Made by a program: the position numbers and the translations under genes
The notes under the pieces: model-generated
Databases searched by the model: none
Told to the model about the DNA's origin: nothing
Seen by the model: the letters and a program-made list of their open reading frames with translations, nothing else
Shown: in pieces, positions 29,210 to 48,334 of the stretch
Numbering within the stretch: position 1 is the first letter of the stretch
Layout of the letters: every line of letters starts with the position of its first letter
Virus record (IMG/VR): IMGVR_UViG_3300042507_006854
Span: 64,001-128,000 of that record
Reading direction: 5' to 3' (one strand)
Origin: a virus
Length of the DNA: 64,000 bases

Positions 29210-30829
29210 TTATTGATTCCTTGGTGGGTCAATACAAATGACTTGTTTATTAGCTAATTTGAAACATCCGTAGACCCCAGATGGAATACTTTCTACTGTT
29301 TCATAATCATAAATATTCGTAGTATATAAGTTACGGAATCTTCTTGTTTTAGAATTATCTGGGAAAATTTTTATACCAGAAGGTAAATTTTTTCTTAATT
29401 GCAAATAACTATTATTAATTCCTTTTCTTAAATTATTATTTGATAATTCAATAGATTTTCTGAGATTATATGATAATCCGAACCCTCTTTTTAAGACTGG
29501 CTCTGAGATAATAAAATTTCCACTTCCCGTAGTTAAAGGATTTTTAAAAGTATTTCTTATTGTTTGATCAATGTATGAATTATCTCCGTAATTTTTATAG
29601 AAGAATCTAAATTCGTTATTTGTGCCCATACGGCCATCTTTAGTCGTGATATATTCTAAAGTAATAGAATGTCCAGATGGTATTGTCCCATCCCATGTAC
29701 CCGTCGCCAAAGTTTTATTATTTATATATAAACCACTGTAAAATTTATAGAACCACGTGTCTTTTAATGGGGTTGTTTGTTTTAATACGTTTAATAATTT
29801 ATATTTATTATTAATTCCCGAATTAAAATTATCTATTATTGGGTTTAAACTTATGCCAGAATCAAATATATTTTGACCGCTAGGTAAATATTCAGAACCA
29901 ATATCTAAAATATTAACACTAATCCCAGAATTAATTTGAACATATTCATATTTTGGTGGTTTACCAGCAACTTTGGGTTGAATTTTTGAAAGTCTTAACT
30001 CTAAATTATCAACTATAGTATTAACAAATCTGTTTTGCACCCCGTGAGGACTAACATAAACAATTTTTTCTGTTCCGTTTGTTGATTTTAATGATGCGAC
30101 TAATAATCCATTCATGTCTTTATACATTTCAGGATATGTATAAACCGAATCTAAAGCGATAACAGTATTTAATTGAAAAACTGGATATTGCCAAAGAGTT
30201 ACGCTATTTGGGTATGGTAAATAACCTGAAACATTTTCATATTTCTTATATAAGAATGTATTTCTATTGTCGTAATTAATTCCGCTATTATAACCGGTAA
30301 TATAATAGCCTGATGTTATAACATTGTTTTGAATAGTAATTGGTTGATAATTAAGTTTAGCTCCTGTTAAAGATGTATTGTTTGATAGATTTGCGGGAAA
30401 TTGAATTCTAGAGAAAGGTAAATTTCTATCAATACTTTTGAGATGTGTTTCTCTCGATTCTAAAAGTGGTTTAAAAAAATTGCTATTTAAAGTTTCAAAT
30501 CTGATTTTATATGGAGCGAAATAAGAATAATCTCCATAGAAATTTAAGGCAAGTTCTGAAATAGTTTCATAAATTTTATTATCATTTTTAATAATAATAT
30601 TTTCAAAAGCGTTTTGCTTTCTTCTACTAAAAAGAATATCATTATAAAGAGTTTTTCTTAGAACTGCTGTCGGTATAACGTTTCTTAAAGTTCCAAGATT
30701 TATTACATCAAATTTATAGTCACGAATTCTCGAATTTGGGTGTGGCTTAGTATCTATTCCAGCCCCATCAAATGCAGATGGAACAAAACTTAACCCTAAT
30801 TTTTTATAATTATTTGTCGAAAGACTCAT
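29210..30829 (-). CDS. Ribozyme-linked large protein, paralog A (putative virion protein)
   Basis: NLGTLR, KIVYVSPH, LKQTTPLKDTWFYK, TGTWDGTIPSG, GCF..CIDPP shared with paralogs B-D. Confidence 0.75.
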   Translation of the reverse strand: MSLSTNNYKKLGLSFVPSAFDGAGIDTKPHPNSRIRDYKFDVINLGTLRNVIPTAVLRKTLYNDILFSRRKQNAFENIIIKNDNKIYETISELALNFYGDYSYFAPYKIRFETLNSNFFKPLLESRETHLKSIDRNLPFSRIQFPANLSNNTSLTGAKLNYQPITIQNNVITSGYYITGYNSGINYDNRNTFLYKKYENVSGYLPYPNSVTLWQYPVFQLNTVIALDSVYTYPEMYKDMNGLLVASLKSTNGTEKIVYVSPHGVQNRFVNTIVDNLELRLSKIQPKVAGKPPKYEYVQINSGISVNILDIGSEYLPSGQNIFDSGISLNPIIDNFNSGINNKYKLLNVLKQTTPLKDTWFYKFYSGLYINNKTLATGTWDGTIPSGHSITLEYITTKDGRMGTNNEFRFFYKNYGDNSYIDQTIRNTFKNPLTTGSGNFIISEPVLKRGFGLSYNLRKSIELSNNNLRKGINNSYLQLRKNLPSGIKIFPDNSKTRRFRNLYTTNIYDYETVESIPSGVYGCFKLANKQVICIDPPRNQ

Positions 30830-30834
30830 AGTTT

Positions 30835-30900
30835 ACCATCCCCTGTCAGACACTATTCGGCGCTCTCTCTTGGTGAGCGCCTACTTCCGGTCTAACTGGG
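30835..30900 (-). ncRNA. Predicted 66-nt circular RNA exon A
   Basis: Between omega-G (30901) and GGGAUGGU|AAAC, which pairs with the IGS; folds as a rod. Confidence 0.65.
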
Positions 30901-31140
30901 CAACTTATGTTATCGTGCGGGAGTTTACCCCGCACATCTCTACGTCACCGTAGAGTTCAGACTATATCTTGTTTACGTTTGCACGTAAATCAGGGCGCTC
31001 GTGGGAAGATTACTGTCCGTTCTGGACTCGCTTCCTAGTCGTTACACCTTTTTCGTATTCCTACGAAACTTGGCTCGGTATTGTCTTTGCCGCGTTAGCG
31101 GCAAAGAGTTCCACCGAATTCACCCCGAAATGGCCTAAAT
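30901..31140 (-). ncRNA. Group I ribozyme copy A (permuted, IA-like, no ORF)
   Basis: P GAAUUCGGUGGAA, Q AAUACCGAGCCAAG, R GUGUAACGACUA, S AAGAUAUAGUCU; P3, P7, P8, P9 pair; ends AAGUUG. Confidence 0.9.
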
Positions 31141-31185
31141 TTTAAAAGATCGATAATAATATTTACACGTAAATTTATGTTTTTT

Positions 31186-31896
31186 TTAAAAAATATTTAA
31201 ATTTGAAGAGAATGTTTCTTCAACAATTCTTCTTGCTTCTTTATCCTCAGAATCTTTAACAGCGTAAACTAACTTATTATTATAAATACTACATTTATAA
31301 ATAGAATCTCCAGCTAAGTTTTTAATTTCTTTAAAGTTGCCTTTAAAATCAATTAAATATGAACGATAAACGCCATCCAAATCTGAAACAGTTATAATAA
31401 ACCTGTCTTCTTGTTCAAAAACATTTGTTAATCTATAAATAAATTTATATTCAAAAGGTAATTTAAATAGTTCATCGTTAACAATTAATTTATCATGACC
31501 ATGTTTATGATCTATAGAAAACAATTTATTTTGAATCAAGCAAGAGCTAAACGATCTTGTTATTATGTTCATATCTCCAATAATATTTAAATTGGAATCT
31601 ATAGGGATATTAATATAACAATATACAATAGGTGTATTTAAACCTTGATTAAAACCAGCTGTATAGCCAAGATAAAGATTATTATCTTTAATTAAAATAT
31701 GTGGATTACACTCTACGAGAATATCTCCATAAATGCCATATTTCGGGGTATTAATTTCAGATTCAACATTATTCGAATCTTTCTTCCAAATTTTCCACGG
31801 AACGAGTTCGTATTCTCCGCCAAAATTTAATTTAATAGAATTTTCTGCAGAACAATATAGTAAGAAATTAGAAGATAAATAAGGTTGATGTTTCAT
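31186..31896 (-). CDS. Hypothetical protein (beta-rich)
   Basis: 236 aa ORF, last in cassette B. Confidence 0.6.
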   Translation of the reverse strand: MKHQPYLSSNFLLYCSAENSIKLNFGGEYELVPWKIWKKDSNNVESEINTPKYGIYGDILVECNPHILIKDNNLYLGYTAGFNQGLNTPIVYCYINIPIDSNLNIIGDMNIITRSFSSCLIQNKLFSIDHKHGHDKLIVNDELFKLPFEYKFIYRLTNVFEQEDRFIITVSDLDGVYRSYLIDFKGNFKEIKNLAGDSIYKCSIYNNKLVYAVKDSEDKEARRIVEETFSSNLNIF

Positions 31897-31913
31897 TTTT
31901 TTATTAATTTTGT

Positions 31914-32660: not shown

Positions 32661-32662
32661 AT

Positions 32663-33598
32663 TTAAAATCTCCTATAATCGGGTTTGTTTTGAATGTTTG
32701 TAGTATTTGGTTTTAATGGGTTCATATTTAAAACTCTATTACCAAAAACCTCTACATCAAAATATTTTCTAGTTTTTACTTCGACATATGGAAAATGAAT
32801 AAAAATTATAAATTCTAACGGTTTTTGAACAATACTCTTGTCATTATTAAATTCATTTAGTAATGAAGATCTTAAACTTGAAGTTAAATTATTAAAAGTT
32901 GATGAATTCCAACTTTTCGCCGCAATATGTGGAATAATAGATCTTTGTGGTAAATTATTTATTATATTGTAAATAGATTCTATAAAAAGATATGTAATTG
33001 ATCTATTAATAGATGGATCCATTAAAAATTCTATATTAGAATTTACAGGCGTATTTTTTAGAGGGCCATACCACGGATTTGTTCCGGATGGGTTCGCTGT
33101 ATAATATACATCATGATAAAAACTGCCACATTTATTATTAGCAGATAATGAATTAAAAAGTTTTTTATTTTCTAATTCATAATTAATTGTGTTAGCGAAG
33201 ACCTCAAGGCTATCCCTATTAATTATTTGATTTTCTCTATTAATTGGATAATAGAATCCTGATATTAATGATAATTTACTATTTAAATATTTAATTAAAG
33301 GATCAGGATTAGAATTTTCATTATTATTTACCAAGGTCGTGGGATATGGACGACTAACGTCATTAGTAATATCAACTGTTATTAAACGAGATGGATAAAA
33401 ATTAATATCAATATTTGCAATATTTGTTCGAAAACCTTGTTCATGATGAACTATTGTAGACAGTTCTTCAATATTAAGACCTGTTTCAGGAGTTTTATCT
33501 AAAAAAACTACTCGGGCTGCATACCATTGAGGATTCGTTGGGCTGAATTTTTGAGTTAATGGGGTTAATGCAGTATTCATATTTATGTATAGCTCCAA
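32663..33598 (-). CDS. Hypothetical protein
   Basis: 311 aa ORF; start may be a few codons later. Confidence 0.6.
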   Translation of the reverse strand: MELYINMNTALTPLTQKFSPTNPQWYAARVVFLDKTPETGLNIEELSTIVHHEQGFRTNIANIDINFYPSRLITVDITNDVSRPYPTTLVNNNENSNPDPLIKYLNSKLSLISGFYYPINRENQIINRDSLEVFANTINYELENKKLFNSLSANNKCGSFYHDVYYTANPSGTNPWYGPLKNTPVNSNIEFLMDPSINRSITYLFIESIYNIINNLPQRSIIPHIAAKSWNSSTFNNLTSSLRSSLLNEFNNDKSIVQKPLEFIIFIHFPYVEVKTRKYFDVEVFGNRVLNMNPLKPNTTNIQNKPDYRRF

Positions 33599-36327
33599 AC
33601 TTTAAGTGGACCTCCGTTTATAGTCGTCCAGCGGTCTAAAATTGTATAACCATTGCCTAAAATAGGCTCAGATATATAAATATCACTACCCTGACCGCTC
33701 AATTTACAATAAATATCATTATTTGATAATTTAAAGCATCCTCCAGAATTTGGTGGAATATTAGCGATAGAATAATAATTATAATTACCAGGTTTAATTC
33801 CAGTAAAATAATTTTCAAAATATTGTCCTATAAGAAAACTTTTAATTCTACGGTCATTCGCGGTATAATTAACAATTTCTGGCAAAAATTTTCTTATCTT
33901 TGCAATGTAAGAATTTCTTTCAAACTTTCTATATTTTAGTTTATTTTTCCAAAAAGCTTCATTTAAAGAATTAAATGAGATACTATAAAAAGTTTTTTTT
34001 GTATTATATTCTTGTAACATCATTATCATTTTAATATAAACATCTTGTACCGAATTAGATCCATAATAATCATGCACTAATAAAAATTCATTTGTTGTTC
34101 CACATGGATTTTCACTTGTTGATAGGTATTCAATAAATAATTGAGTACCACTTGGTATAATTCCATTCCAAGTTCCGGTATTAAAAGTTTTACCGCCATT
34201 CCCAGTTGTATAAATTCCACTGTATAACTTATAAAACCAAGTATCTTTTATAGGAGTTGTTTGTTTTAAATGGTCACTAATTTTATATAAATCATTATTT
34301 ATTAAATGATATCCAAATATAGATTGATTAGCTTGCTCTGTAATTTGTTGGGTTGTTAAGCCTGGATATAAATTATATAATGCTGGATTTTGGGCAACCC
34401 AATCTTGAGTCACGTATCCACTTTTTGGCCAAAGACCACTACCCGTAGTAGCTGTATTAAGTCTTTCTATATATGGTTTAGAATATAATCCAGAATCTGG
34501 AAATACAAAACCACTATTATTATGAAAAGAGTCTAGGTCATACCCAAGAATTGTAATTCCAGAAACTACTTTTCTATATTCTAAACTTGGGGCCGATAAT
34601 CTTCTTATATAATCTCTTCCGATTAGTATAGTTGTTTCAATTCCGCTATTATGAATTATATTACTCCAATATCTTTGTTGTGTAGTGTTTGTTGTTAATG
34701 CGAATCCAGACCAATTAATTCCGTTAGATGACTTAAAACCGCTAGAAGTTTGTGAATAATTGTCTGGAATAATAGTCCATTCTTTACCATCATGAGTAAT
34801 TCCGGCCCAGCTTGTATTAGCTGGTAAAGTTCCTACAGACCATCCGCTACCATTTGTAGAAGTAAGATATTGATTGCCATATGATGGTATCCCAATAAAT
34901 CTTCCATTTGCAAATTGTATATCTTTAATATAAAGACTTCCTGGAAGTGAGAATTCTTGCCAATTAATCCCATTTAGAGAAATAGCTCCCATAGGAGAAG
35001 AGTAAAATCCGCCACCAGCATTATTAATAGCGACCCATTTACCATCTCCATAAGCTAAAGATCTATAATCTGTTTGGCCAGCAGATGTTGGTAATGCTGC
35101 ATTTCCACTCCAATTTACTCCGTCTGTAGAAGTAATAGTTCTATCAGAACTATCTCTACCTAATATTACCCAACGATTGATACCATTAAAAACAATTTTT
35201 TTGAACTGCGTCATTGGGAAATATTGACCGTTATTACTTCCATTTATATCTATTTCTGACCATGTTTGTCCATTATTAGTGGACGTAGCCCCTTTTGCAA
35301 AAGAAACATTATGAAAGGATGGAAGAGCTATCCAACGACCTGTTCCATAAGCGATATTTGCCCATAGAGCGGTATGAGGTAAAGCTTCAATACGTAATTC
35401 CCAACTTTTTCCATTTTGTGATCTAGCGAGATCTGTTGTGCTACCACCATATTTGTTTGACCCAACTGCAATCCAATAACCACTACCATAATCAGCATCC
35501 ATCCACTGCCCATCAAGCCTTGTTTCAACATCTTTTTGTTGTTTAGACAGCGAAACTTCTATATTCTCTACAATTGTATTAAAAAATTGTTTTTCGGCTT
35601 TGTGTGGGCTAATATAGACTATTTTTTGGTTAGTTGGTGTTCCCGTACTTAAAATTAATAATCCATTCATTGGGGCATTTGGTAAAAATGCATTTCTAAC
35701 TAATTTTGTGGGTATATTATATTTTGGATAAGTTTGTTGGAAAATTGTTTGTGGATATGGTACATAAGCCCCAGAATAAGATACGAAATGATTTTTTTCT
35801 TCTAAAGATTTAATAATCGGGTTATTAATATTAGGAGTTTTATATGTTGTAAAATATCCTGATAATGTATTTGTATTTGATACTTTCCATTCTCTTGGAA
35901 AAGAAAATCTTGCGTAAGATTTAAGAGGGTCTGTATTTCTAACATGTGACGCTGGTAATTTAAGCATCTTGCTATAAAATTTTTGGTCAAAAAAATCTAA
36001 ATGAATTAAATTCATTTTAAAACTTTCTAGCTCCCCATATTTTTTTTCAAAAAATTCTGAAAAAGCTTTATAATAAATATCTGAAGGTAATTTATTATTT
36101 GACCATATAACTTTGCCGTAATACCCAGCACTATTACTATCATTAAAAAATTCTATTTGTTTTTCTGCAACAATCGCATGATTTGGATTTTTTAAAGTTC
36201 CAAAATTTGCGTTTTTTGTAATGAATGACGCCAATGCCGCATTTTTATTAGGAACTAAATTTACGTTTTCAAGTAACGAAAGTGTTCCGCCTAATCCAAG
36301 ATTAGTTGCATCATTATAAATACTCAT
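33583..36327 (-). CDS. Ribozyme-linked large protein, paralog B, with inserted Asp-box-like repeat domain
   Basis: Family motifs plus repeated S.[DN]G..W / AYG.G.W.A units. Confidence 0.78.
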   Translation of the reverse strand: MSIYNDATNLGLGGTLSLLENVNLVPNKNAALASFITKNANFGTLKNPNHAIVAEKQIEFFNDSNSAGYYGKVIWSNNKLPSDIYYKAFSEFFEKKYGELESFKMNLIHLDFFDQKFYSKMLKLPASHVRNTDPLKSYARFSFPREWKVSNTNTLSGYFTTYKTPNINNPIIKSLEEKNHFVSYSGAYVPYPQTIFQQTYPKYNIPTKLVRNAFLPNAPMNGLLILSTGTPTNQKIVYISPHKAEKQFFNTIVENIEVSLSKQQKDVETRLDGQWMDADYGSGYWIAVGSNKYGGSTTDLARSQNGKSWELRIEALPHTALWANIAYGTGRWIALPSFHNVSFAKGATSTNNGQTWSEIDINGSNNGQYFPMTQFKKIVFNGINRWVILGRDSSDRTITSTDGVNWSGNAALPTSAGQTDYRSLAYGDGKWVAINNAGGGFYSSPMGAISLNGINWQEFSLPGSLYIKDIQFANGRFIGIPSYGNQYLTSTNGSGWSVGTLPANTSWAGITHDGKEWTIIPDNYSQTSSGFKSSNGINWSGFALTTNTTQQRYWSNIIHNSGIETTILIGRDYIRRLSAPSLEYRKVVSGITILGYDLDSFHNNSGFVFPDSGLYSKPYIERLNTATTGSGLWPKSGYVTQDWVAQNPALYNLYPGLTTQQITEQANQSIFGYHLINNDLYKISDHLKQTTPIKDTWFYKLYSGIYTTGNGGKTFNTGTWNGIIPSGTQLFIEYLSTSENPCGTTNEFLLVHDYYGSNSVQDVYIKMIMMLQEYNTKKTFYSISFNSLNEAFWKNKLKYRKFERNSYIAKIRKFLPEIVNYTANDRRIKSFLIGQYFENYFTGIKPGNYNYYSIANIPPNSGGCFKLSNNDIYCKLSGQGSDIYISEPILGNGYTILDRWTTINGGPLKVWSYT

Positions 36328-36335: not shown

Positions 36336-36401
36336 AACCAACAGAAGAATTTTTTTTCATACCGGGATTCAATCCGGCCGAAATGATTTACTTCCACTTA
36401 T
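36336..36401 (-). ncRNA. Predicted 66-nt circular RNA exon B
   Basis: Between omega-G (36402) and UGGUU|AAAAA pairing with IGS GACC. Confidence 0.6.
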
Positions 36402-36640
36402 CAACGTGTTATCGTGCGGGAGTTTACCCCGCACATCTCTACGTCACCGTAGAGTTCAGACTATATCTTGTTTACGTTTGCACGTAAATCAGGGCGCTCG
36501 TGGGAAGATTACTGTCCGTTCTGGACTCGCTTCCTAGTCGTTACACCTTTTTCGTATTCCTACGAAACTTGGCTCGGTATTGTCTTTGCCGCGTTAGCGG
36601 CAAAGAGTTCCACCGAATTCACCCCGAAAGGTCATATTAA
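36402..36640 (-). ncRNA. Group I ribozyme copy B (permuted)
   Basis: Core 36407-36629 reads identical to 30908-31130; ends CACGUUG. Confidence 0.9.
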
Positions 36641-36643
36641 TAT

Positions 36644-36667
36644 TTTAAAGAACAGTAATAATTACAC
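36644..36667 (-). promoter_or_regulatory. GTGTAA promoter motif plus boxA-like GTTCTTTAAA ahead of ribozyme B (equivalents at 31141-31168, 40519-40542, 48799-48823)
   Basis: Same arrangement before all four ribozymes; the boxA-like motif also precedes the tmRNA, tRNA-Val and the 58.5 kb RNA. Confidence 0.65.
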
Positions 36668-36700
36668 TTAAATATTTGAAATGTAGATTTTTTTATAAAA

Positions 36701-37468
36701 TTATCTTTTATATTGACTTGGAACTGGGAAATTATTACATTTTTTGGGTTCTATATCATTATTATTTAATAGTCTATAACTTTGTAGATTTACTTTATTT
36801 TTTGATTTAAATTTAATTATAGGAGAGGTAAAAACAATATCTAGATTTAAGGCATGAGGAACAATAGTCCCACGATTTCCAGTTTTTGATTCTAATTCTA
36901 TTTGTTTTTGCTCGGTTGGTATACTTCCCATTGCGTAACCATAACAATCAAAATAATCTTTTTCCGGATTAGTAGCGTCAGTCCATTGGTTGTTTATATT
37001 TTTATATCTAATTAAACCAAGATTTAATTCAAGATCTTCTTTTTTATATTCATTATTCAAGTATTTATTTAATAAAGATGAGAATTGCTTTGAAGAACGA
37101 ATATCTTGATTATTTTCAGTATAATTGCTTCCTAAAGATTTAAACTCTAACGAAAATTCTTGAAAGTCTGGTTGTGGTCCTTCCCATTTTGGGCTTTTAG
37201 GGCCGATTCTTGGAATAAAATTTGTATAGGGTTTTGTTGAGAAATTTCCAGGTTTTAAAATTTTCTTATAGTGTTGAGAGCGTACTATTTTTTGATTATA
37301 ATTTTCAACAATTACCGATTCAGAATCTTGTGTTAAGATGTTAGTAATATTTATAAATACTTGATCTGGCGGAGCCACCGAAGTCGTTTCTAAATTAATC
37401 CGTTTTCCGCCCAGAGAAATAGAAGTTCTTACACCATGTTTAAAATTTGTTGTGTCGATATTAATCAT
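36701..37468 (-). CDS. Hypothetical protein
   Basis: 255 aa ORF, cassette C. Confidence 0.6.
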   Translation of the reverse strand: MINIDTTNFKHGVRTSISLGGKRINLETTSVAPPDQVFINITNILTQDSESVIVENYNQKIVRSQHYKKILKPGNFSTKPYTNFIPRIGPKSPKWEGPQPDFQEFSLEFKSLGSNYTENNQDIRSSKQFSSLLNKYLNNEYKKEDLELNLGLIRYKNINNQWTDATNPEKDYFDCYGYAMGSIPTEQKQIELESKTGNRGTIVPHALNLDIVFTSPIIKFKSKNKVNLQSYRLLNNNDIEPKKCNNFPVPSQYKR

Positions 37469-37481: not shown

Positions 37482-38336
37482 CTAACCTATTACTGGCCAT
37501 AGTTGTGCCCCTCCGTTCTGTGAAGAATTTTGTGCTTCTCCGTCTATTTCATCTGAACAGCTATCGCCCCCATCGTCTGTTTCGTCTAAATCTTCCTCTT
37601 TTTCATCTTCTTCTTCTTCGTTTTCGTCGTCATCGTCTTTATCGGGCGGATAATCTTTATTACGTTTTCTATTCTTATCGGGTCTTTTATCTCTACATCC
37701 TGGACAATTTGGATCATTATTACTTATTACCGTATCATCGGGATTTAGTAATTCATTTGCCAAAGCGCCTACCGCTCCTGCAGCGAGAGTCGCGGCGGCT
37801 CCAACTCCTTGAGGACTACTGAGAGCGCCATCTATCGCAGCTTTTGTAGCCGCTTTAGCTTCTGCATTTAAAGCTGTTTGCTCCATTTTTGCTAAGCCAT
37901 GAGCATGCTCTCTTATAAAATTTTCTTTACGTACAGTTTGATTTAACAGGTCAGATTTTCTCACCTCGTTAAAATTTTCCATTAGAGATTTAGCGCTTGT
38001 ATCTCCACGCCAAGCTGCTTGTTTAGACGCTTTATCCCATAAGCTTGCTGGAGAGGATGGTTTGAGAATGTTGTCTCTTAAATAACCTTGCATTTCGGGC
38101 CTATTAAGTTGTGCCCTTGCAGCTTGAGTTATTCCATCTCGACCAGTATTATTTACGATAGTATTACTAACTTCACCGATTTTATATCCAGGTTTACCAA
38201 CACCAGCCTTTAATCCTTGAGAAATACCTCTTGATGTTGACCACGATTTACTTACAGCCTTTGCTGCTGCAGCCACTGCAGCGCTTTGTGTCGCAGCTCT
38301 TGCGGCGAGTCCACCTAATAGTAAAGGAAATCCCAT
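37482..38336 (-). CDS. Ala-rich protein with acidic C-terminal tract
   Basis: Hydrophobic Ala/Gly helices, CPGC, poly-D/E. Confidence 0.65.
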   Translation of the reverse strand: MGFPLLLGGLAARAATQSAAVAAAAKAVSKSWSTSRGISQGLKAGVGKPGYKIGEVSNTIVNNTGRDGITQAARAQLNRPEMQGYLRDNILKPSSPASLWDKASKQAAWRGDTSAKSLMENFNEVRKSDLLNQTVRKENFIREHAHGLAKMEQTALNAEAKAATKAAIDGALSSPQGVGAAATLAAGAVGALANELLNPDDTVISNNDPNCPGCRDKRPDKNRKRNKDYPPDKDDDDENEEEEDEKEEDLDETDDGGDSCSDEIDGEAQNSSQNGGAQLWPVIG

Positions 38337-40201
38337 TAGCTACCTCCCCCCGCTGCCGATGGAGCTAATTTAAAATTTGAATGTCTACGAGAAAACGTAT
38401 TTAAAGAAGGATAAGCTTTCAATCTTTTTCTATTAAAAAAGGTAAGAGATCTTTTCATGCGATTTGTTTGTGTCATAAGTAGTGGGAATTTATTTATTAT
38501 ATTTTTTACATATAAATTTCTTTTATATACCTCAAATTTTTGAAAATTTTTCCAAAAACCGTCCTCCATAGAATTAAAAGATATAGAGGTAAATTCTTTA
38601 GAAATACTAGTATCAAATAATAAAGATAATCCCATTGATTTTTTAATGGACACATCTATCAAAGAATTATCTCCATAATTAGAATGAACTAGCAAAAAGT
38701 CTGCATTTGTACCGCATGGTTCTTCGTTAGTGCTAAGATATTCCATAAAAACAGTTGTTCCGCTAGGTATAATTCCATTCCAAGTACCCAAATTAAATGT
38801 TTTATTTCCGGTATATAAGCCACTATATAATTTGTAAAATAAAGTATTTTGAATCGGAATTTCTTGTTTTAAGAAATTATTTACTTTATAGACATTACAA
38901 TCTAATAACATTGATACAAAATAATTTAAATTCGCCTGTTGTAAATTATCTAAACCAGAAATAAAAGAAATATTATCTGGAGCTGGCGCGCTTCCGCTTA
39001 TAAATGAATTCATAGTATTAAGATATGTTAACATTTCATTCGTAATTAATCCGGAAATAGGCCAGGTGCTCATAATACCTGTATCTCCTAAATTAGCTAA
39101 TTCCGTGGGACTTTTAGAAATCAAACCTGTTGGAAATACAAAACCATTATTTACATATATTGAATTTACGTCTATCCCAGGAACCGAAATACCATATGAT
39201 GTTTTAACATAATTTAAAATTCCTGTATAACCAGTAAATGAACATGATCTAGGATCACTTGGATTAATATATTTTTTACATCTGAAGTTATTAAATGGTT
39301 TAAAATTTTGAACACTCGTTTCGAAAGTTTCTACTACTGTATTAAAAACTCTTGTGGATCCGCTATGTGGTGAAATATACACAATTTTCTGAGAATAATG
39401 ATTACCAGTAGAAATTAGTAAAATACCATTAAGATTACTATTTGCAGAAATAGAATTTTGAGTAATTACGGTGTCAATATTTAATCTTGGTAATTGATGC
39501 AAGTAAATTGATTGTGGATAGATTACATATCCAGAATAATCTTTATTATAAATAAAATTATTAATGTTATTTATAGCATTTAATGTTGCTAAATTTCCAG
39601 TAACAAAAGATCTTCTTAAATTTCCAGTTAATTGTTCAAAATTATAAACATTTGGAGAATCGATATAATCAATAATTCCGGTCGATAAGCCAGAATTAAA
39701 AAAACCAGTTACTGGAACTGATTTAATACCAGATAAAATTTTTGTATTGTGGACGCCCCAATCTTTTGGAAATGAAAATCTTACATAATCTAATAGAGGA
39801 TGGGTATCTTCATTATTAAAGTTTTTGTTTATTCTTATAAAATTAAAAAATCCTTGATCAAGAGTATCTCTTTGAATAGGTGGAGTATCGATACTATACA
39901 ATTCACCATAAAAAGTATGAGAATATTTTGAAATAGTTTTAAAATAATCTTTAACATTTAAAGGATGTTCGGTCCAAACGATTTTGCTATGATAAGCTTT
40001 TAAATTCTCATCTATAGAATTATCAATTTCTTTTTGTAGTACAAGCGCAGTGTTAGGGACTCTTAAAGTACCAAGGTTATCGATAGAAATAATATAACCA
40101 TTTAATTTTGTGTTGAGAGAAGGGGTTAGATCAACGTTCTCTAACAAATTAATAGGCCCTCCAAACCCAATTTTACTAGCATCGGAAATTAGTTGTTGCA
40201 T
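38336..40201 (-). CDS. Ribozyme-linked large protein, paralog C
   Basis: NLGTLR, KIVYISPH, FYKLYSG, TFNLGTWNGIIPSG. Confidence 0.75.
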   Translation of the reverse strand: MQQLISDASKIGFGGPINLLENVDLTPSLNTKLNGYIISIDNLGTLRVPNTALVLQKEIDNSIDENLKAYHSKIVWTEHPLNVKDYFKTISKYSHTFYGELYSIDTPPIQRDTLDQGFFNFIRINKNFNNEDTHPLLDYVRFSFPKDWGVHNTKILSGIKSVPVTGFFNSGLSTGIIDYIDSPNVYNFEQLTGNLRRSFVTGNLATLNAINNINNFIYNKDYSGYVIYPQSIYLHQLPRLNIDTVITQNSISANSNLNGILLISTGNHYSQKIVYISPHSGSTRVFNTVVETFETSVQNFKPFNNFRCKKYINPSDPRSCSFTGYTGILNYVKTSYGISVPGIDVNSIYVNNGFVFPTGLISKSPTELANLGDTGIMSTWPISGLITNEMLTYLNTMNSFISGSAPAPDNISFISGLDNLQQANLNYFVSMLLDCNVYKVNNFLKQEIPIQNTLFYKLYSGLYTGNKTFNLGTWNGIIPSGTTVFMEYLSTNEEPCGTNADFLLVHSNYGDNSLIDVSIKKSMGLSLLFDTSISKEFTSISFNSMEDGFWKNFQKFEVYKRNLYVKNIINKFPLLMTQTNRMKRSLTFFNRKRLKAYPSLNTFSRRHSNFKLAPSAAGGGS

Positions 40202-40209: not shown

Positions 40210-40280
40210 AACCAATGAATAGATTACCTGGAGCTCTAGCTTTTCTGGGTGCCGGAGCTTTATTCTTTCTATACAATTAT
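40210..40280 (-). ncRNA. Predicted 71-nt circular RNA exon C
   Basis: Between omega-G (40281) and UGGUU|AAAAA pairing with IGS GACC. Confidence 0.6.
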
Positions 40281-40515
40281 CAACGTGTTATCGTGCGGGA
40301 GTTTACCCCGCACATCTCTACGTCACCGTAGAGTTCAGACTATATCTTGTTTACGCTTGCGCGTAAATCAGGGCGCTCGTGGACAGTTTATTGTTTTGTG
40401 CTACTCACTGTCTAGTCGTTGCACCTTCTACTTACTATTGCACTTCAGTAGCTTGGCTCAAGATTGTCTTCTTAAAAAGAGTTTCCTTGAATTCACCCCG
40501 AAAGGTCATATTTAA
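40281..40515 (-). ncRNA. Group I ribozyme copy C (permuted)
   Basis: P/Q/R/S conserved; compensatory changes in P4 (UUCAAG/CUUGAG) and P8. Confidence 0.9.
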
Positions 40516-40593
40516 ATTTTTAAAGAACATCCTTTATTACACATTTTTAAATAAAAACCTTGTTTTTTTTAAAAAAAACTTTATAATTCTTTT

Positions 40594-41625
40594 ATGGCTG
40601 AAAATATCAATACAATTAAAAATAAACTAAATCAATATTTTAAAATTGGTAAGAATGTATTACTTGAAGGCCGTCATGGAACTGGAAAAACAAGTCTTGT
40701 CACAGAAGTATTTAGTAAAAATTGTAAAAATTGGCTTTATTTTTCTGGGTCAACCCTCGACCCATGGGTAGATTTTGTTGGAGTTCCCAAAGAAATTAAA
40801 AAAGGGAATGATTATGTTCTTTCGTTTGTTCTTCCGGAAAAAATGGCAGACGATAAAGTAGAAGCTATTTTTATTGATGAGTATAATCGTAGCCACAAAA
40901 AAATTCGCAATGCTACTATGGAACTTGTTCAGTTCAAAAGCATTAATGGGCGTAAATTCCCCAATCTTAAAGTTGTATGGGCTGCTATTAATCCAAGCGA
41001 TGACGAAGAAGAATACGACGTAGAAGAACTAGATGGCGCACAAACAGATCGTTTTCAAATTAGAATCAAAGTTCCATTTGTTCCTGATATTGAGTATTTC
41101 CAAAATAAATTTGGTAACGATTGGGCCAAATCAGCCCTTGAATGGTGGAATGGAATGCCAGATAAAGCTAAAAAATTAGTATCACCACGTAGGCTTGATT
41201 ATGCACTAGAAATTCATAAAGAAGGTGGGGATATCTTTGACGTTATTCCACTAGAAACAAACCCAACAAAGTTAATTGCAACATTAAAACTCGGAAGTCT
41301 TGAAGATAAAATCAAAAGTCTTTATAAACTAAAAGATGCAAAAAAAGCTCAACAATTTTTTGAAGACGAGAATAGTTTTCAAGCTGCGTTACCAATTATT
41401 AAAAGAAAAGCTGATTACATGAAATTCTTTTTACCAACTATTGATAACGAACGCATTACTTCTCTTTTCTTCAGCGATGCACATTATAAAACATTTATTT
41501 TAGATCATGCTCCATATTTTAAACCAGCATTAGAAGAAATTTCAAAATTAAAATCTGTTAGTAAAGATGATATTCGTATGATTAATCATGCTCTTAAACA
41601 AGTGGGAAATATTACTTATTTTTAA
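40594..41625 (+). CDS. MoxR/dynein-related AAA+ ATPase
   Basis: GRHGTGKT, FIDEYNR, AAINP, DRF. Confidence 0.85.
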   Translation: MAENINTIKNKLNQYFKIGKNVLLEGRHGTGKTSLVTEVFSKNCKNWLYFSGSTLDPWVDFVGVPKEIKKGNDYVLSFVLPEKMADDKVEAIFIDEYNRSHKKIRNATMELVQFKSINGRKFPNLKVVWAAINPSDDEEEYDVEELDGAQTDRFQIRIKVPFVPDIEYFQNKFGNDWAKSALEWWNGMPDKAKKLVSPRRLDYALEIHKEGGDIFDVIPLETNPTKLIATLKLGSLEDKIKSLYKLKDAKKAQQFFEDENSFQAALPIIKRKADYMKFFLPTIDNERITSLFFSDAHYKTFILDHAPYFKPALEEISKLKSVSKDDIRMINHALKQVGNITYF

Positions 41626-42156: not shown

Positions 42157-42190
42157 GGTAAAAACGTATGATATTATATATTACACATAA

Positions 42191-42850: not shown

Positions 42851-42883
42851 ATTTTAATTCATTTAATTATAATATATTCAACA

Positions 42884-43507: not shown

Positions 43508-44089
43508 TTAGGGCAAACTAATTTTAACTAAGGCGTATCCGTTTTCGTCTTTACGGCTTAAGAATTTTCCGATAACAACGATTCCGTCTGTAGCTATACG
43601 ACCATTCGATCCAACGTAAGCTGCATCTCCGATATCAGGAGCACCTCCGCCGCCACCACGATTGGTTTCATCAATATCATTGATAAGAATAAGACCTCTT
43701 GTTAATACTGGAACTGCTTGAATATCTTTAATAATAACATCCATTTCAGCAGCTTTACGAGAATTAAAGATTAATTTTTCGCCATTTTCATCAAATTCAC
43801 GAATATCTTTAAGTAGAACACCTATTGCTGTTGGTACATCATCATGATTAACAACAGGTTCCACTTGACCAACTAATTCAAAATTTTGCGTTACAGTATT
43901 TGTATATACAGCGCCAGGAGCGGAAGATCCTAAGTCCAAAGGCCCTGCAGTTCTTTTATCAGAAGCTCCAGTTGATTTCCAGCTTCTTTTTGGCTTAACA
44001 AGAGTTCCTTTATTTGCAATAGCTGTGCAAGCAAAAAAGTTTAAAACTTCATGTTCACTATAATCTCTAAATGGAAGTAAGTTTGGCAT
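43508..44089 (-). CDS. Putative head decoration/structural protein
   Basis: Late-type GTGTAA motif; beta-rich, GVLLKD..VPVLTRG. Confidence 0.5.
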   Translation of the reverse strand: MPNLLPFRDYSEHEVLNFFACTAIANKGTLVKPKRSWKSTGASDKRTAGPLDLGSSAPGAVYTNTVTQNFELVGQVEPVVNHDDVPTAIGVLLKDIREFDENGEKLIFNSRKAAEMDVIIKDIQAVPVLTRGLILINDIDETNRGGGGGAPDIGDAAYVGSNGRIATDGIVVIGKFLSRKDENGYALVKISLP

Positions 44090-44689: not shown

Positions 44690-44721
44690 CAACCGCTCAT
44701 AATAATATTATTATACTAAAT

Positions 44722-44925: not shown

Positions 44926-44930
44926 AATAT

Positions 44931-45146: not shown

Positions 45147-45204
45147 AATAATATTATTACACTTTTTTAAAAAAAATTGACTTATTTAAATTAAATGCTA
45201 TAAT

Positions 45205-45764: not shown

Positions 45765-45821
45765 TATTCATAATTACACATAAAATAGATAGTTTTTGTT
45801 TTAAAATTTAAAATAATACAA

Positions 45822-46229
45822 ATGAATAGACAAAAAACAATATGCTTTTTACGCCAAATCTGTTTGCAATATGAAGTTAAAGTTAGATTTCGTACCCGTT
45901 TTGATAAAGAATTAGACGGAGAAGCAGATACTGAAAAAGAAATAATTTATATAGATAAAAAATTACCACGTAGAGCCATGGCTGAAGCGGTATTTCATGA
46001 ATTGGGTCATATTTATTGTGTCCGAAAAGGTATTTGGAATAAATTCCATAAAGAGCATGATTATTCCGCAATCAAATCATTCAAAGCAGAGAATTGGATT
46101 GAACACTGGGCCAAACGCGAATGGGATGCGTGGGGTATGAGAAAAATATTTGGACAGTATCGATTTGTTTATTTAAAAAGCGAAAAGAAAAAATTAGTAA
46201 AATGGTTTGAAAAAAAATTCAACTTATAA
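45822..46229 (+). CDS. ImmA/IrrE-like HExxH protein
   Basis: FHELGH..E. Confidence 0.6.
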   Translation: MNRQKTICFLRQICLQYEVKVRFRTRFDKELDGEADTEKEIIYIDKKLPRRAMAEAVFHELGHIYCVRKGIWNKFHKEHDYSAIKSFKAENWIEHWAKREWDAWGMRKIFGQYRFVYLKSEKKKLVKWFEKKFNL

Positions 46230-46234
46230 ACTTA

Positions 46235-48334
46235 TCATAGGGGTGGATCAATACAAACCCCGATACCCCCAGATAGAGTAAAACATCCAAAAACTCCAGG
46301 AGGAATATCTGATATTGTTGCATAATCATAAGGCAATACTTTTTTCCATTCTACTTTTTGTCCGGAGATAAAAGTATCTTCGATCAAATTATTATTTGTT
46401 AATCTAAAACCGGCACGAGTTGATATACCGGTTGGAAGTCCAGGGCGATTTCTGAGAGGAATGCCAGCATATCCTGTATAAGAACATGACATTGGGTCAG
46501 AAGGGTTAATATAGGTCTTACAGTATCTACCCACACCGTCTTTTGGATTATTTTTAACAAGATCTAAACGGCCCATCAAATCAATCATTTTTCTTACTTT
46601 TGCATTACCTTTTGTAATTCCTCTTGACCATAAATAACCATATAATCGAGATTTCGCTTGTTTACTTGCTTTTCTACTGGCTAAATAAGATGCTTCATAT
46701 TGATTATTTGCACTAGCAGTAACTTTATATCCATAAAATATACCTGAACCTAATAAACCACTAGGGTTTTCGGAATATTGATAAATTCCGCTCCCACTTT
46801 CAGAAGAAAGGATGAAAGCATTAGAGATATATACATTTAAATTTGGGGTCGTAATTTCTGAATTTTTCAATCTGACCGTTTCAATAGAAAAAGGTGTTCC
46901 GCTTGGAATTATTCCATTCCAAGTGCCAGTGTTAAAAGTATTTTTTCTATATACTGGCTCATACAATTTATAGAACAATGTGTCCTTTAAAGGAATTTGT
47001 TGTTTTAATCGTGCCGCATCAAAATTGTAAAAACGTTTAGAAGAACCACTTGTTATCTTAGTGATATAATTTAAGCCAGTATAATTATAATCAAAACTGG
47101 AGACGCTTGTTAAATTTCCACTTTGTAATAAATAGACATCTCTTGAATTAATTATTCTACCATTACTTCCAGTAATTGGAATACGGCTTGAAGAAGATAA
47201 TTCGGCCCAAAATCCGGCGAAATTTTCAATAGCGTGAGGACTTACGTAAACAATTTTTTTAGATGATATCCCAGTACTTACAATGATTATGTCACTAATT
47301 TTATTTCCATTATTTTCAAAAGTAATAACACTATTATATCTTAATGCTGGGTAGCTTTGAATATTATAGGAATGGGGATATGTTATCCAGTTATTATTAG
47401 CTGGAAGATTTCCACTTGTATTCCCTACAACACCATTCACAGATGAATAAATTTTATTTTTACCGTTAGAAATTCTTGTCGTTGCTAATTTAAAAAATCC
47501 TTCTAATTCAATTTCTTCTGAAACAGGTAAAGGATTTGATCCACTTGTGGAGCTTGAACCTGTAATTTGCCAATTATTTCCCGTAGGCAAAGTATTATTT
47601 CCAAGAAGAACATACAAAGGACGAAAATTTAATCTCCATTGATCTCTTTGTCTTAAAACCCATCCACTTTGCGTAGGTACAGATATAAAACCAGATATTC
47701 CAGATACAAAATTATTATTTTGAAACCAAATCATATCAACTGGTATAGAATTAGAAGAATTTACATATCTTGTTTTATTATTTATAACCCCATTTGGAAC
47801 AAAAATTCCATTAATTGGGAGGGAGGACTGACTTACTATAATATTTTGACTTTTTGTAAAACCGGAAGACAATGCGAAAAATTTTTGCTGTTCTCCTTGC
47901 GAAATTCCAGTCACGCCACTTTGAATAGTTATAGAAGTAACTCTTGAAGATAAACGGTTAAAACTTGCAAAAAGTGGATCATAAGGATTATTTTGATCGA
48001 TTGATGAATTGCTTTGATATGTTAAGACTTGACCATTTAAAACAATTTCGCTAAGAGTTTCTTGAAAATAATATTGTGGTGCAGATTCGTTTTTTATTTC
48101 AATTGGATAGTAACCTTGCGTCTCATTATCAAAAATGACCAATTTCTCAATCGGTTTTCTCAAAGTTCCAACGTTAATAGTTTTTAAATCTATTTTAGAA
48201 TAACTATTAAAATCTTTTATCGTCTTATTTAGACTGATTGGGGTAGAAGTTGAAATTTTTTGCTCAGACTTGCGAATGTCTACTAGATAATCTTTTTTAG
48301 ATAATCCTAATTTTTTCCTTTTAAAGTTATTCAT
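46235..48334 (-). CDS. Ribozyme-linked large protein, paralog D
   Basis: NVGTLR, KIVYVSPH, LKQQIPLKDTLFYKLY, TFNTGTWNGIIPSG, GCF..CIDPP. Confidence 0.75.
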   Translation of the reverse strand: MNNFKRKKLGLSKKDYLVDIRKSEQKISTSTPISLNKTIKDFNSYSKIDLKTINVGTLRKPIEKLVIFDNETQGYYPIEIKNESAPQYYFQETLSEIVLNGQVLTYQSNSSIDQNNPYDPLFASFNRLSSRVTSITIQSGVTGISQGEQQKFFALSSGFTKSQNIIVSQSSLPINGIFVPNGVINNKTRYVNSSNSIPVDMIWFQNNNFVSGISGFISVPTQSGWVLRQRDQWRLNFRPLYVLLGNNTLPTGNNWQITGSSSTSGSNPLPVSEEIELEGFFKLATTRISNGKNKIYSSVNGVVGNTSGNLPANNNWITYPHSYNIQSYPALRYNSVITFENNGNKISDIIIVSTGISSKKIVYVSPHAIENFAGFWAELSSSSRIPITGSNGRIINSRDVYLLQSGNLTSVSSFDYNYTGLNYITKITSGSSKRFYNFDAARLKQQIPLKDTLFYKLYEPVYRKNTFNTGTWNGIIPSGTPFSIETVRLKNSEITTPNLNVYISNAFILSSESGSGIYQYSENPSGLLGSGIFYGYKVTASANNQYEASYLASRKASKQAKSRLYGYLWSRGITKGNAKVRKMIDLMGRLDLVKNNPKDGVGRYCKTYINPSDPMSCSYTGYAGIPLRNRPGLPTGISTRAGFRLTNNNLIEDTFISGQKVEWKKVLPYDYATISDIPPGVFGCFTLSGGIGVCIDPPL

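What the first reader, a model, noticed from the sequence alone, without database searches (positions are those of the whole stretch)
29210..48334. Each ribozyme heads a member of one modular protein family
Seen: the first gene after every ribozyme (539, 914, 621, 699 aa) shares ordered motifs NxGTL[RK], KIVY[VI]SPH, LKQxxPxxxTxFYK, GTW[ND]GxIPSG. Modules are shuffled: B has an inserted Asp-box-like repeat domain; CKxYINPSDPxSCSxTGY is central in C but C-terminal in D; a GCFxL..C tail is in A, B and D. The 4/4 linkage implies ribozyme and protein form one functional unit. A virion or receptor-binding role is inference from SG-rich composition and the late-type promoter.
Basis: partly seen in the sequence, partly recalled or inferred. 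Interest (0 to 1): 0.72.

Follow-up and report, generated by a model that had tools for sequence, protein, structure and literature searches.

The report
Permuted ribozyme heads phage protein family
In this uncultured phage and its freshwater relatives, every gene of one previously undescribed protein family has a rearranged (circularly permuted) group I ribozyme directly in front of it. The ribozyme's predicted cut site lies a few bases before the start codon, so RNA enzyme and gene look like one inherited expression unit.

Summary
Genes A-D (539, 914, 621 and 699 aa) are paralogs (24-35% identity) with the stated motifs and shuffled modules. B's insert folds as a Ycf48/BNR-type beta-propeller.

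All four upstream elements match Rfam group I (68-82 bits). The 147-kb record holds exactly four ribozymes and four family genes, always paired.

The linkage holds elsewhere. All 31 homolog loci from IMG/VR and JGI metagenomes whose 5' flank is available carry the ribozyme directly upstream. Of 31 unique ribozymes of this subfamily, 30 head a family gene.

The guide sequence, just 5' of P3, covaries with GGNU|AA lying downstream of the core, a median 7 nt before the ATG. An upstream partner exists in only 2 of 31 sequences. Canonical relatives, introns in capsid and Hsp70 genes, use the same GGU|AAAC and GAUAACA..UG| splice sites. The ribozyme is therefore circularly permuted, and its first step should create the mRNA's 5' end.

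The protein has no Pfam, PHROG, NCBIfam, PADLOC or PDB match and no recognisable fold, despite a confident model. It lies in the replication and nucleotide-metabolism region, not the structural module. The virion role and the "late promoter" are unsupported.

No natural permuted group I ribozyme was found in the literature searched. Earlier notes of this scan concern this same genome only.

The parts
29210..30829 (-). Family gene A (539 aa, P0001), minimal form of the family
   Evidence: AF2 model has pLDDT 86.7 and pTM 0.80.
30830..30834 (-). Predicted post-cleavage leader of A (AAACU) between the 5' splice site U30835 and the ATG
   Evidence: plus reading of P1 in the register fixed by distance to P3
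30835..30900 (-). 66-nt spacer between omega-G (30901) and the predicted 5' splice site U (30835). It would be released as a circle if both splicing steps occur.
30901..31202 (-). Group I ribozyme A. The guide sequence is at 31131-31136. The core from P3 to omega-G is 99% identical to that of B.
   Evidence: RF00028 69.9 bits; nhmmer 211 bits; core identity 222/225
33583..36327 (-). Family gene B (914 aa, P0002)
34588..35544 (-). Insert in B (residues about 262-580): Ycf48/BNR-type beta-propeller placed at the family's insertion hot spot between YxSPH and GTWxG
36336..36401 (-). 66-nt spacer of cassette B. The 5' splice site U is at 36336 and is followed by the 8-nt leader AAAAACUU.
36402..36707 (-). 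Group I ribozyme B. Guide sequence UGACC at 36630-36634, omega-G at 36402.
   Evidence: RF00028 68.3 bits; nhmmer 232 bits
38336..40201 (-). Family gene C (621 aa, P0003). The Cys module is at residues 308-328 (39218-39280).
40210..40280 (-). 71-nt spacer of cassette C. The 5' splice site U is at 40210 and is followed by an 8-nt leader.
40281..40583 (-). Group I ribozyme C. Guide sequence UGACC at 40504-40508, omega-G at 40281.
   Evidence: RF00028 81.6 bits; nhmmer 216 bits
46235..48334 (-). Family gene D (699 aa, P0004). The Cys module is at residues 605-625 (46460-46522), after the core.
48374..48565 (-). 192-nt spacer of cassette D. The 5' splice site U is at 48374 and is followed by a 39-nt leader.
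48566..48853 (-). Group I ribozyme D. Guide sequence UGUCC at 48783-48787, omega-G at 48566.
   Evidence: RF00028 76.0 bits; nhmmer 262 bits
43508..44089 (-). 193-aa ORFan. It is a homolog of the ~190-aa gene that neighbours the cassette in 17 of 22 related loci.
   Evidence: cluster; E 2.4e-96; no family match
31179..31193 (-). Cassette-specific A/T motif TTTTWWAAAAAAAWC upstream of ribozyme A. It also occurs at 36686-36700 (B) and 40562-40576 (C), and nowhere else in the 147-kb record.

Best explanation
The four genes are paralogs of a rare, previously undescribed phage protein family. Every member examined is expressed from a fixed cassette with this order:
- a short A/T-rich upstream element;
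- a circularly permuted group I (IA2-like) ribozyme;
- a 60-71 nt hairpin spacer (sometimes 135-192 nt);
- a 5' splice site GGNU|AA;
- an A-rich leader of 2-13 nt that lacks a Shine-Dalgarno sequence;
- the ORF.

Shown by comparison: the ribozyme's guide sequence, just 5' of P3, pairs with the strand immediately upstream of the start codon and not with anything upstream of itself. The omega-G 3' splice site lies before that strand.

Inferred: after transcription the ribozyme folds, and exogenous GTP attacks after the wobble U. This cuts the mRNA free with a G-plus-short-leader 5' end and releases the start region from the P1/core structure. Translation of the family protein is thereby gated by ribozyme action. 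A second step would join the spacer's ends into a small circle.

Inferred more weakly: the protein is a beta-rich scaffold that displays swappable binding modules (beta-propeller, Laminin-G lectin, Cys loop) at one hot spot. This suggests a diversifying ligand- or glycan-binding role. Whether it is a virion component is unknown.
For: Family and paralogy. The family has 85 cluster representatives among 1.84 billion, 61 of them at E<1e-30.

Group I identity of all four elements. Twenty-six core pairs show compensatory changes.

Exclusive pairing:
- The record holds 4 ribozymes and 4 family genes.
- 13 of 13 IMG/VR homolog loci have the ribozyme.
- 18 of 18 metagenome loci with an intact 5' flank have it; the other 10 are cut at the contig or locus edge.
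- 30 of 31 unique subfamily ribozymes head a family ORF with the KLGL...NxGTL N-terminus.
- 42 further group I cores with the same P3/P7 words score only 30-119 bits, lack the 5' domain, and have no family gene.

Permuted P1:
- RNAalifold finds a helix between columns 131-135 and 451-455 with an invariant G.U and GC/AU/UA covariation.
- 92.8% of cells are paired, against 17-51% when the partner is slid; only 2 of 500 shuffles reach the covariation score.
- Over 31 unique sequences, a downstream partner exists in 30 and an upstream partner in 2.
- The +1 pair covaries as U:A, A:U and C:G.

Splice-site calibration from canonical relatives: an Hsp70 gene is split at DLGG|GTFD, with 5' site GGU|AAAC and 3' site GAUAACAAAAUG|.

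P10 and omega-G: positions +1 and +2 after omega-G pair with the guide's 5' flank in 26 and 24 of 31 sequences.

Distance from cut to ATG: median 7 nt, and at most 13 nt in 22 of 26.

Translation without Shine-Dalgarno: only 16 of 96 starts in this phage have an SD-like 4-mer.

Insertion hot spot: the YxSPH-to-GTWxG spacing ranges from 99 to 1057 aa. Inserted modules are a propeller and Laminin_G_3.
Against: - No RNA data or biochemistry exists. Cleavage, G addition, circle formation and translational gating are all inferred.
- P1 is short, 4-5 bp plus the wobble.
- A few cassettes have leaders of 20-39 nt, including D, which weakens the 'near-leaderless' idea.
- Cassette A fits only when the register is set by distance to P3.
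- One subfamily ribozyme (L037) heads an unrelated 129-aa ORF, so the ribozyme is not strictly confined to this family.
- Protein function has no direct support. There is no family or fold match, and the genomic position is among replication and nucleotide-metabolism genes, not structural genes.
Confidence: 0.65

Rival explanations
1. The ribozymes are canonical introns, and each gene is an intron-borne ORF. The 5' splice site before a gene would pair with the guide of the next ribozyme downstream. Each gene (plus followers) would then sit in a giant L1 loop, and the short spacers would be the real exons.
For: In the tandem run C-B-A, the substrate before C (GGUUA) also fits the guide of ribozyme B (UGACC). 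The substrate before B fits ribozyme A's guide in 4 of 5 positions. Canonical relatives have the same splice-site words.
Against: - Single cassettes in other phages have no downstream ribozyme, yet their guide covaries with the substrate 60-190 nt downstream of the same core: 30 of 31 downstream against 2 of 31 upstream.
- Gene A has no ribozyme after it.
- D's substrate (GGAUA) mismatches C's guide, and genes on the opposite strand lie between them.
Confidence: 0.07
2. The main product is RNA, not the processed mRNA. The cassette would exist to make the small circular or rod-like RNA, or the freed ribozyme. The family protein is co-expressed because it binds, protects or uses that RNA as a ribonucleoprotein partner, analogous to acpG beside CP group II ribozymes.
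For: - Both splice sites and P10 appear conserved.
- Spacer length is tightly held at 60-71 nt in 19 of 26 sequences, while its sequence is unrelated between cassettes (53-63% identity).
- CP group II ribozymes also have an associated gene of unknown role (PMC8637638).
Against: - The protein shows no recognisable RNA-binding domain or fold.
- Charged residues are low, 16-19% against 23% for the genome.
- The cut site tracks the start codon closely, which is expected if the mRNA end matters.
- This reading is compatible with the best explanation rather than exclusive of it.
Confidence: 0.15
3. The ribozyme is a selfish or vestigial passenger. A degenerate mobile intron would have lodged once in front of an ancestral gene and been inherited passively, with no role in expression.
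For: Group I introns are common selfish elements in phages (PMC3984707). Close canonical relatives sit in capsid and Hsp70 genes of similar phages. Cores A and B are 99% identical, which shows recent copying.
Against: - The ribozyme is retained without exception while the proteins diverged to about 20-25% identity.
- The catalytic core keeps compensatory changes in 26 pairs.
- Guide and substrate co-vary.
- No homing endonuclease is present that could maintain it selfishly.
- Gene conversion stops sharply at P3 and omega-G, leaving each cassette's own guide and substrate intact.
Confidence: 0.08
4. Protein function: the family proteins are virion tail-fibre or receptor-binding proteins transcribed late.
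For: - S+G+T+N content is 33-37% against 26.5% for the genome.
- There are multiple diverged paralogs per phage.
- Lectin-like and propeller modules are swapped at one site.
- The weak top BFVD rows are tail-fibre proteins, and ESM-Atlas leads point to baseplate-J-like clusters at 0.85.
Against: - There is no PHROG structural family match.
- The genes lie outside the terminase and large-protein module and next to RNR, PurA-like and sigma-factor genes in relatives.
- The putative promoter motif is confined to the cassettes.
Confidence: 0.3

Closest known systems
Natural circularly permuted (CP) group II ribozymes with the associated gene acpG (Roth et al. 2021, PMC8637638)
   Same: [quoted passage not shown] In both, a protein gene of unknown function tends to sit beside the ribozyme.
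   Different: The ribozyme class is different, group I with exogenous G rather than group II with branching. Here the 5' splice site abuts the start codon of the partner gene, so the reaction should also make the mRNA 5' end. The linkage is essentially obligate, and the hosts are phages. Activity is proven in vitro for CP group II and untested here.
Lariat-capping (GIR1) ribozyme upstream of homing-endonuclease ORFs in twin-ribozyme introns (PMC4167309, PMC3679873)
   Same: Both are group I-derived ribozymes placed directly 5' of an ORF, and their cleavage creates the 5' end of that ORF's mRNA.
   Different: The LC ribozyme does a one-step branching that leaves a 3-nt lariat cap, lives inside another intron in eukaryotic rDNA, and heads a homing endonuclease. 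Here the full group I core (RF00028, not GIR1) with G-binding P7 and omega-G is kept, the topology is permuted, and the ORF is not a nuclease family.
c-di-GMP-II riboswitch plus group I ribozyme in a Clostridioides difficile 5' UTR (described in PMC3984707 and PMC9481103)
   Same: Both have a group I ribozyme in a 5' UTR whose processing decides whether the downstream start codon is usable.
   Different: That ribozyme has the canonical order, with the 5' splice site upstream. It needs an aptamer and ligand, and it builds or removes a ribosome-binding site by exon ligation. Here no aptamer is seen, the order is permuted, and the gene sits on the 'intron' side of the 5' splice site.
Engineered permuted intron-exon (PIE) group I constructs from T4 td and Anabaena (e.g. 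PMC4344496, PMC12355055)
   Same: The topology is the same: 3' part of the intron, 3' splice site, exon, 5' splice site. It yields circular exons.
   Different: Those are laboratory constructs split in a peripheral loop. Here the break is natural and lies in the P1 loop, so only the substrate strand is moved, and a protein gene follows the 5' splice site.
Canonical phage group IA2 introns, in capsid, Hsp70 and tail-tube genes of the related IMG/VR contigs found here and in T4 td/nrdB/sunY (the latter from general knowledge)
   Same: They share the core sequence words (AACGACUAG...AGAUAUAGUCUGAAC, GAUAACA..UG| 3' site, GGU|AAAC 5' site).
   Different: They interrupt conserved coding sequences, with the 5' site upstream. 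They lack the GUGUAA/GUUCUUU 5' domain, scoring only from HMM position ~94 onward, and are never followed by the family gene.

Membership tests
Group I catalytic intron (Rfam RF00028) | Covariance-model score above the curated gathering score | tested here: met
   A 69.9, B 68.3, C 81.6 and D 76.0 bits against a cut-off of 50, each matching the full model 1-253
Group I catalytic intron (Rfam RF00028) | P3-P9 core helices supported by compensatory changes; conserved J8/7 and P7 G-binding strand | tested here: met
   55 predicted pairs, 26 with double changes, in 14 sequences. AAGAUAUAGUCU is invariant.
Group I catalytic intron (Rfam RF00028) | Interrupts a gene, with the 5' splice site upstream and the 3' splice site downstream of the core (canonical intron order) | tested here: not met
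   The N-termini are complete at the ATG (KLGL...NxGTL is conserved). The guide's partner is downstream in 30 of 31 sequences and upstream in 2 of 31.
Group I catalytic intron (Rfam RF00028) | GTP-dependent self-cleavage or splicing activity | not testable with these tools
   Needs in vitro transcription assays or RNA-seq.
Circularly permuted self-splicing ribozyme (PIE topology) | The 3' splice site (omega-G) precedes the 5' splice site (U.G wobble in P1) on one transcript | tested here: met
   Omega-G was assigned from canonical relatives. P1 covariation has 92.8% of cells paired and only 2 of 500 shuffles reach it.
Circularly permuted self-splicing ribozyme (PIE topology) | P10 pairing that aligns the 3' splice site for exon ligation (circle formation) | tested here: inconclusive
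   Positions +1, +2 and +3 pair in 26, 24 and 17 of 31 sequences, with some covariation at +1. The helix is short and A/U-rich, and no product data exist.
Lariat-capping ribozyme (GIR1) | Match to the GIR1 covariance model or architecture | tested here: not met
   Rfam scans at the gathering score and at E<=1 return only RF00028 for these elements.
Any curated protein family (Pfam, PHROGs, NCBIfam, PADLOC) | Profile match for the conserved scaffold | tested here: not met
   No family for P0001-P0004 apart from noise-level hits. The PDB profile search had a best E of 0.057. No match in GenBank phages by tblastn.
Phage tail fibre / receptor-binding protein | Fold or sequence similarity to known fibre, spike or RBP domains | tested here: inconclusive
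Phage tail fibre / receptor-binding protein | Location in the structural (tail or baseplate) gene module | tested here: not met
   The genes lie at 93-112 kb, between DNA polymerase/HNH and the tRNA block. The terminase and large-protein module is at 0-60 kb. In relatives the neighbours are RNR, adenylosuccinate synthetase, glycosyltransferase and sigma-factor genes.
Intron-encoded homing endonuclease or maturase | LAGLIDADG, GIY-YIG, HNH or His-Cys box domain | tested here: not met
   No such Pfam or PHROG hit in any of the four proteins or in eight long homologs.
BNR/Asp-box (Ycf48-like) beta-propeller (insert of B only) | Multi-bladed propeller fold with SxDxGxxW-like repeats | tested here: met
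   The AF2 insert is all-beta repeats. Foldseek gives Ycf48 at E 9e-11 with TM by target 0.59-0.63, plus NanB sialidase and GH74. Repeats such as STNNGQTW and STDGVNW are visible. No Pfam BNR hit.

The most novel reading that the evidence does not exclude
This would be a new kind of gene-expression cassette. A naturally circularly permuted group I ribozyme, not reported before in the literature searched, does two things in one reaction. It back-splices a ~65-nt hairpin into a circular RNA, and it creates the G-initiated, near-leaderless 5' end of a dedicated protein's mRNA. The circle and the hypervariable protein could then act together, for example as an RNA-protein pair in host recognition or counter-defence.
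Probability: 0.3. Interest if true: 0.92.

Novelty: new variant of a known kind. Interest (0 to 1): 0.8.

Why it matters
Group I ribozymes are known in nature as introns, plus two domesticated cases: the lariat-capping ribozyme and one riboswitch-gated 5' UTR. Permuted versions are known only as laboratory tools for making circular RNA.

Here a permuted form appears to be fixed in nature, conserved across dozens of diverged phage cassettes, and tied one-to-one to a protein family with no known relatives or fold.

If the predicted chemistry holds, it gives three things:
- a natural PIE system making small circular RNAs in phage infections;
- a new way of defining and gating an mRNA 5' end in hosts that do not use Shine-Dalgarno sequences;
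- a handle on an unknown, rapidly diversifying phage protein family.

All of this is directly testable with one in vitro transcript and with existing freshwater metatranscriptomes.

Tried and rejected
- Rfam E-value scans missed ribozyme A in the 22-kb scan and the one in L005. Both were recovered with a focused scan and an nhmmer profile, so 'L005 lacks a ribozyme' was a false negative.
Contexts came from the search for related loci and DNA-pattern scans instead.
- My first guess for the guide sequence, the conserved GUUCUUU, gave no consistent partner by RNAduplex and was dropped.
- A canonical upstream 5' splice site was rejected: a partner exists in only 2 of 31 sequences.
- The sigma-70 promoter and terminator scan was at chance, 104 sites against 103 expected.
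- tblastn against GenBank phages found no match.
- ESM Atlas gave only 0.85-level leads to baseplate-J-like clusters with low shared features, treated as noise.
- PADLOC and NCBIfam found nothing.
- BLASTP among the cassette's follower genes found only the four ~100-aa ORFs to be related.
- Literature searches for natural permuted group I ribozymes returned only engineered PIE systems and CP group II.
- L078 and L079 could not be extended because their records are not held.

Full report
**Setting.** The window is bases 64001-128000 of a 146,949-bp IMG/VR virus record, estimated 78% complete. Its GC content is 32.6%.
- The left part of the window encodes ribonucleotide reductase, a DnaB-like helicase, a UvsX-like recombinase, DNA polymerase and an HNH endonuclease.
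- The right part holds a tRNA cluster and a tmRNA.
- The terminase and a run of very large ORFs, up to 3367 aa, lie at 0-60 kb of the record.
- The finding occupies the stretch between the replication genes and the tRNAs.

**Observation.** Four - strand ORFs give proteins of 539, 914, 621 and 699 aa: 29210-30829, 33583-36327, 38336-40201 and 46235-48334. They align as paralogs at 24-35% identity.
- The Cys-rich CKxYINPSDPxSCSxTGY module lies before the GTWxG core in C (residue 308) and after it in D (residue 605).
- The GCFxL..C tail is in A, B and D.
- B carries a roughly 320-aa insert. In an AlphaFold model (pLDDT 75.6) it is a beta-propeller whose best PDB matches are Ycf48 (E 9e-11), then BNR sialidase and GH74. 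'Asp-box-like repeat domain' is therefore a fair description.
- Each gene is preceded by a full-length RF00028 match above the gathering score.
- A profile search of the whole record finds exactly four ribozymes and four family genes, always adjacent.

**The family.** No Pfam, PHROG, NCBIfam or PADLOC family matches the scaffold. Nor does any PDB sequence or GenBank phage.
- An exhaustive profile search of 1.84 billion cluster representatives finds only 85 relatives, 61 at E<1e-30, with lengths up to 1468 aa.
- A 64-sequence alignment gives a confident model of A (pLDDT 86.7, pTM 0.80).
- Across 70 homologs, the distance from YxSPH to GTWxG ranges from 99 to 1057 aa, while the C-terminal part stays at about 120-230 aa.
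- This is the site of B's propeller, C's Cys module and the Laminin_G_3 lectin domain of P0020. The family is thus a conserved scaffold with one main insertion hot spot.

- *Ribozyme core pattern.* An exact DNA pattern from the core found 40 IMG/VR loci. An nhmmer profile built from the family-linked copies split these into two groups: a high-scoring group (over 140 bits, matching from the 5' domain) and a low-scoring group matching only from P3 onward. All but one of the 19 unique high-scoring copies are followed by an ORF with the family N-terminus.
- *Protein-pattern scan of IMG/VR.* This gave 13 loci, and 12 have the ribozyme within the locus. In the thirteenth (L052) the gene runs off the locus. 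The record has one RF00028 hit (81.6 bits) exactly upstream of the gene's true start, with the cut site 2 nt before the ATG.
- *Scan of JGI metagenome contigs.* This gave 28 loci. All 18 whose 5' flank is present have the ribozyme directly upstream, and the other 10 are cut at the contig or locus edge.
- *Control.* A second DNA pattern specific to this P3/P6-P7 type found 42 further loci. All score 30-119 bits, lack the 5' domain and have no family gene.
- The early 'no ribozyme' result for L005 was a false negative of the Rfam filter.

**What the other cores are.** The low-scoring cores sit in or before fragments of major capsid proteins (Phage_cap_E, Gp10A-like, SU10_MCP, Mu gpT), a tail-tube protein and Hsp70. 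In the Hsp70 cases the flanks read ...DLGG|GTFD.... The 5' splice site is GGU|AAACUAA and the 3' splice site is GAUAACAAAAUG|. These are canonical introns. They calibrate the splice-site words for the family-linked copies.

**Topology of the family-linked ribozyme.**
- RNAalifold on 14 cassettes predicted the usual P3-P9.1 helices, 26 pairs with double compensatory changes. It also predicted a long-range helix between AUGNCC just 5' of P3 and GGNUA just before the ATG, with an invariant G.U.
- Counted on that alignment, 92.8% of cells pair, against 17-51% when the partner is slid by 1-3 columns. Only 2 of 500 shuffles reach the observed covariation score.
- Over 31 unique cassettes, the middle pair takes G:C, U:A and A:U, and the pair after the wobble takes U:A, A:U and C:G.
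- A 5-bp partner is found downstream in 30 of 31 sequences and in the 107 nt upstream in only 2 of 31. The one exception is cassette A, which fits (UGGU with GCCA) once the register is set by distance to P3.
- The conserved GAUAACA(N)UG, the 3' splice site of the canonical relatives, lies before this strand. The first two bases after it can pair with the guide's 5' flank in 26 and 24 of 31 sequences.
- The order is therefore guide, core, omega-G, spacer, 5' splice site, gene. This is a circular permutation with the break in the P1 loop.
- The spacer is 60-71 nt in 19 of 26 cassettes and 135-192 nt in 7. The distance from the cut to the ATG has a median of 7 nt, ranges from 2 to 39, and is at most 13 nt in 22 of 26.
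- Window coordinates for all four cassettes come and are listed under parts. They agree with the sites the first-stage notes proposed.

**How it most likely works.**
- Shown: the pairing, the order of sites and the obligate association.
- Inferred: GTP attacks after the wobble U, freeing an mRNA that begins G-AAA..AUG. In the precursor the start region is held in or next to P1, docked in the core.
- This phage rarely uses Shine-Dalgarno sequences; only 16 of 96 starts have an SD-like 4-mer, and the upstream regions are A/U-rich. An unstructured A-rich 5' end would therefore be what initiation needs, making translation dependent on ribozyme action.
- A second step would circularise the spacer.
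- Cores A and B are 99% identical (222/225). Their 5' domains (74%), spacers (53%) and proteins (about 32-35%) are not. The catalytic core is thus homogenised by gene conversion while each cassette keeps its own guide-substrate pair.

**Protein role.**
- The insertion hot spot, the lectin and propeller modules, multiple diverged paralogs per phage, and a mildly S/G/T/N-rich, low-charge composition point to a diversifying binding protein.
- Nothing ties it to the virion. There is no structural-family or fold match. The position is among replication and nucleotide-metabolism genes here and in relatives, which have RNR large and small subunits, adenylosuccinate synthetase, glycosyltransferase and a sigma factor as neighbours.
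- The A/T motif upstream of A-C occurs nowhere else in the record, so it is not a general late promoter. The sigma-70 scan is uninformative.
- A ~190-aa ORFan is the most constant neighbour, present in 17 of 22 loci and often divergent from and abutting the ribozyme. It has a homolog at 43508-44089 in the window.

**Comparison with known systems.**
- Natural CP group II ribozymes make small circles and have an associated gene, acpG, of unknown role (PMC8637638).
- The lariat-capping ribozyme creates the 5' end of a homing-endonuclease mRNA (PMC4167309).
- A C. difficile 5'-UTR group I ribozyme gates translation under c-di-GMP control (PMC3984707).
- Permuted group I constructs are standard tools for making circular RNA.
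- I found no report of a natural permuted group I ribozyme, or of this protein family, in the library searched.

**Verdict.** I rate this a new variant of a known kind, with high interest. The association is solid. The chemistry and its effect on expression are well-founded predictions. The protein's function remains open.

Noticed in passing
L013:66-4481 (- strand); L010:18-2082; L022:2006-6573 (- strand): Some IMG/VR contigs carry tandem arrays of 7-11 group I ribozyme cores spaced about 290-360 nt apart, with only short stretches between them. ORFs called across them (MVNTENNNPSTSA...) start inside P3 and may be spurious. This is not the family-linked subtype.
   Followed up: partly
L018:3941-5233 and L031 (Hsp70); L007, L008, L012, L026, L039 (major capsid proteins); L020 (tail-tube-like): Canonical relatives of the same intron clade interrupt or precede Hsp70 (split at DLGG|GTFD), several major capsid protein types and a tail-tube gene. 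In L008 and L039 the downstream ORF holds nearly the whole capsid domain, so the intron sits very near the gene's 5' end.
   Followed up: partly
L037:1277-1670 (- strand) and ORF L037:890-1279 (- strand): One ribozyme of the permuted subfamily (151 bits, guide UGGCC, substrate GGCUA) heads an unrelated 129-aa ORFan instead of a family gene. The ribozyme module can therefore serve another gene.
   Followed up: partly
window 30901-31125 vs 36402-36624: Ribozyme cores A and B are 99% identical (222/225). Their 5' domains, spacers and genes are diverged. This indicates gene conversion with sharp boundaries at P3 and omega-G.
   Followed up: yes
window 27950-29209 (- strand): Four consecutive ~100-aa ORFs downstream of gene A are paralogs of one another (26-38% identity). 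They have no family match.
   Followed up: partly
window 43508-44089 (- strand); genome 12764-13306 (+): A ~190-aa ORFan family is the most conserved neighbour of the cassette in other phages (17 of 22 loci, often divergent and abutting the ribozyme's 5' end). It has two copies in this record.
   Followed up: partly
window 57498-57949 (- strand); tRNAs at 49131-49548 and 58831-63844: The phage encodes a full-length tmRNA (RF00023, 141.5 bits) and at least ten tRNAs.
   Followed up: no
L014:12241-13236 (- strand), L025:3433-4428 (- strand): Related phages carry an adenylosuccinate-synthetase-like gene. It matches phrog_1211, whose PHROG description is '2-aminooxy adenylosuccinate synthetase', and lies near the cassette. 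I did not check whether it indicates modified DNA bases.
   Followed up: no
window 40561-40576: The upstream motif of cassette C is a perfect T8A8 palindrome, so it reads the same on both strands. It lies between the divergent AAA-ATPase gene (40594-41625, +) and ribozyme C.
   Followed up: no
whole record (G000): Only 16 of 96 long ORFs have an SD-like 4-mer upstream, and upstream regions are A/U-rich. This suggests a host with SD-independent initiation, possibly Bacteroidota. The host was not determined.
   Followed up: partly
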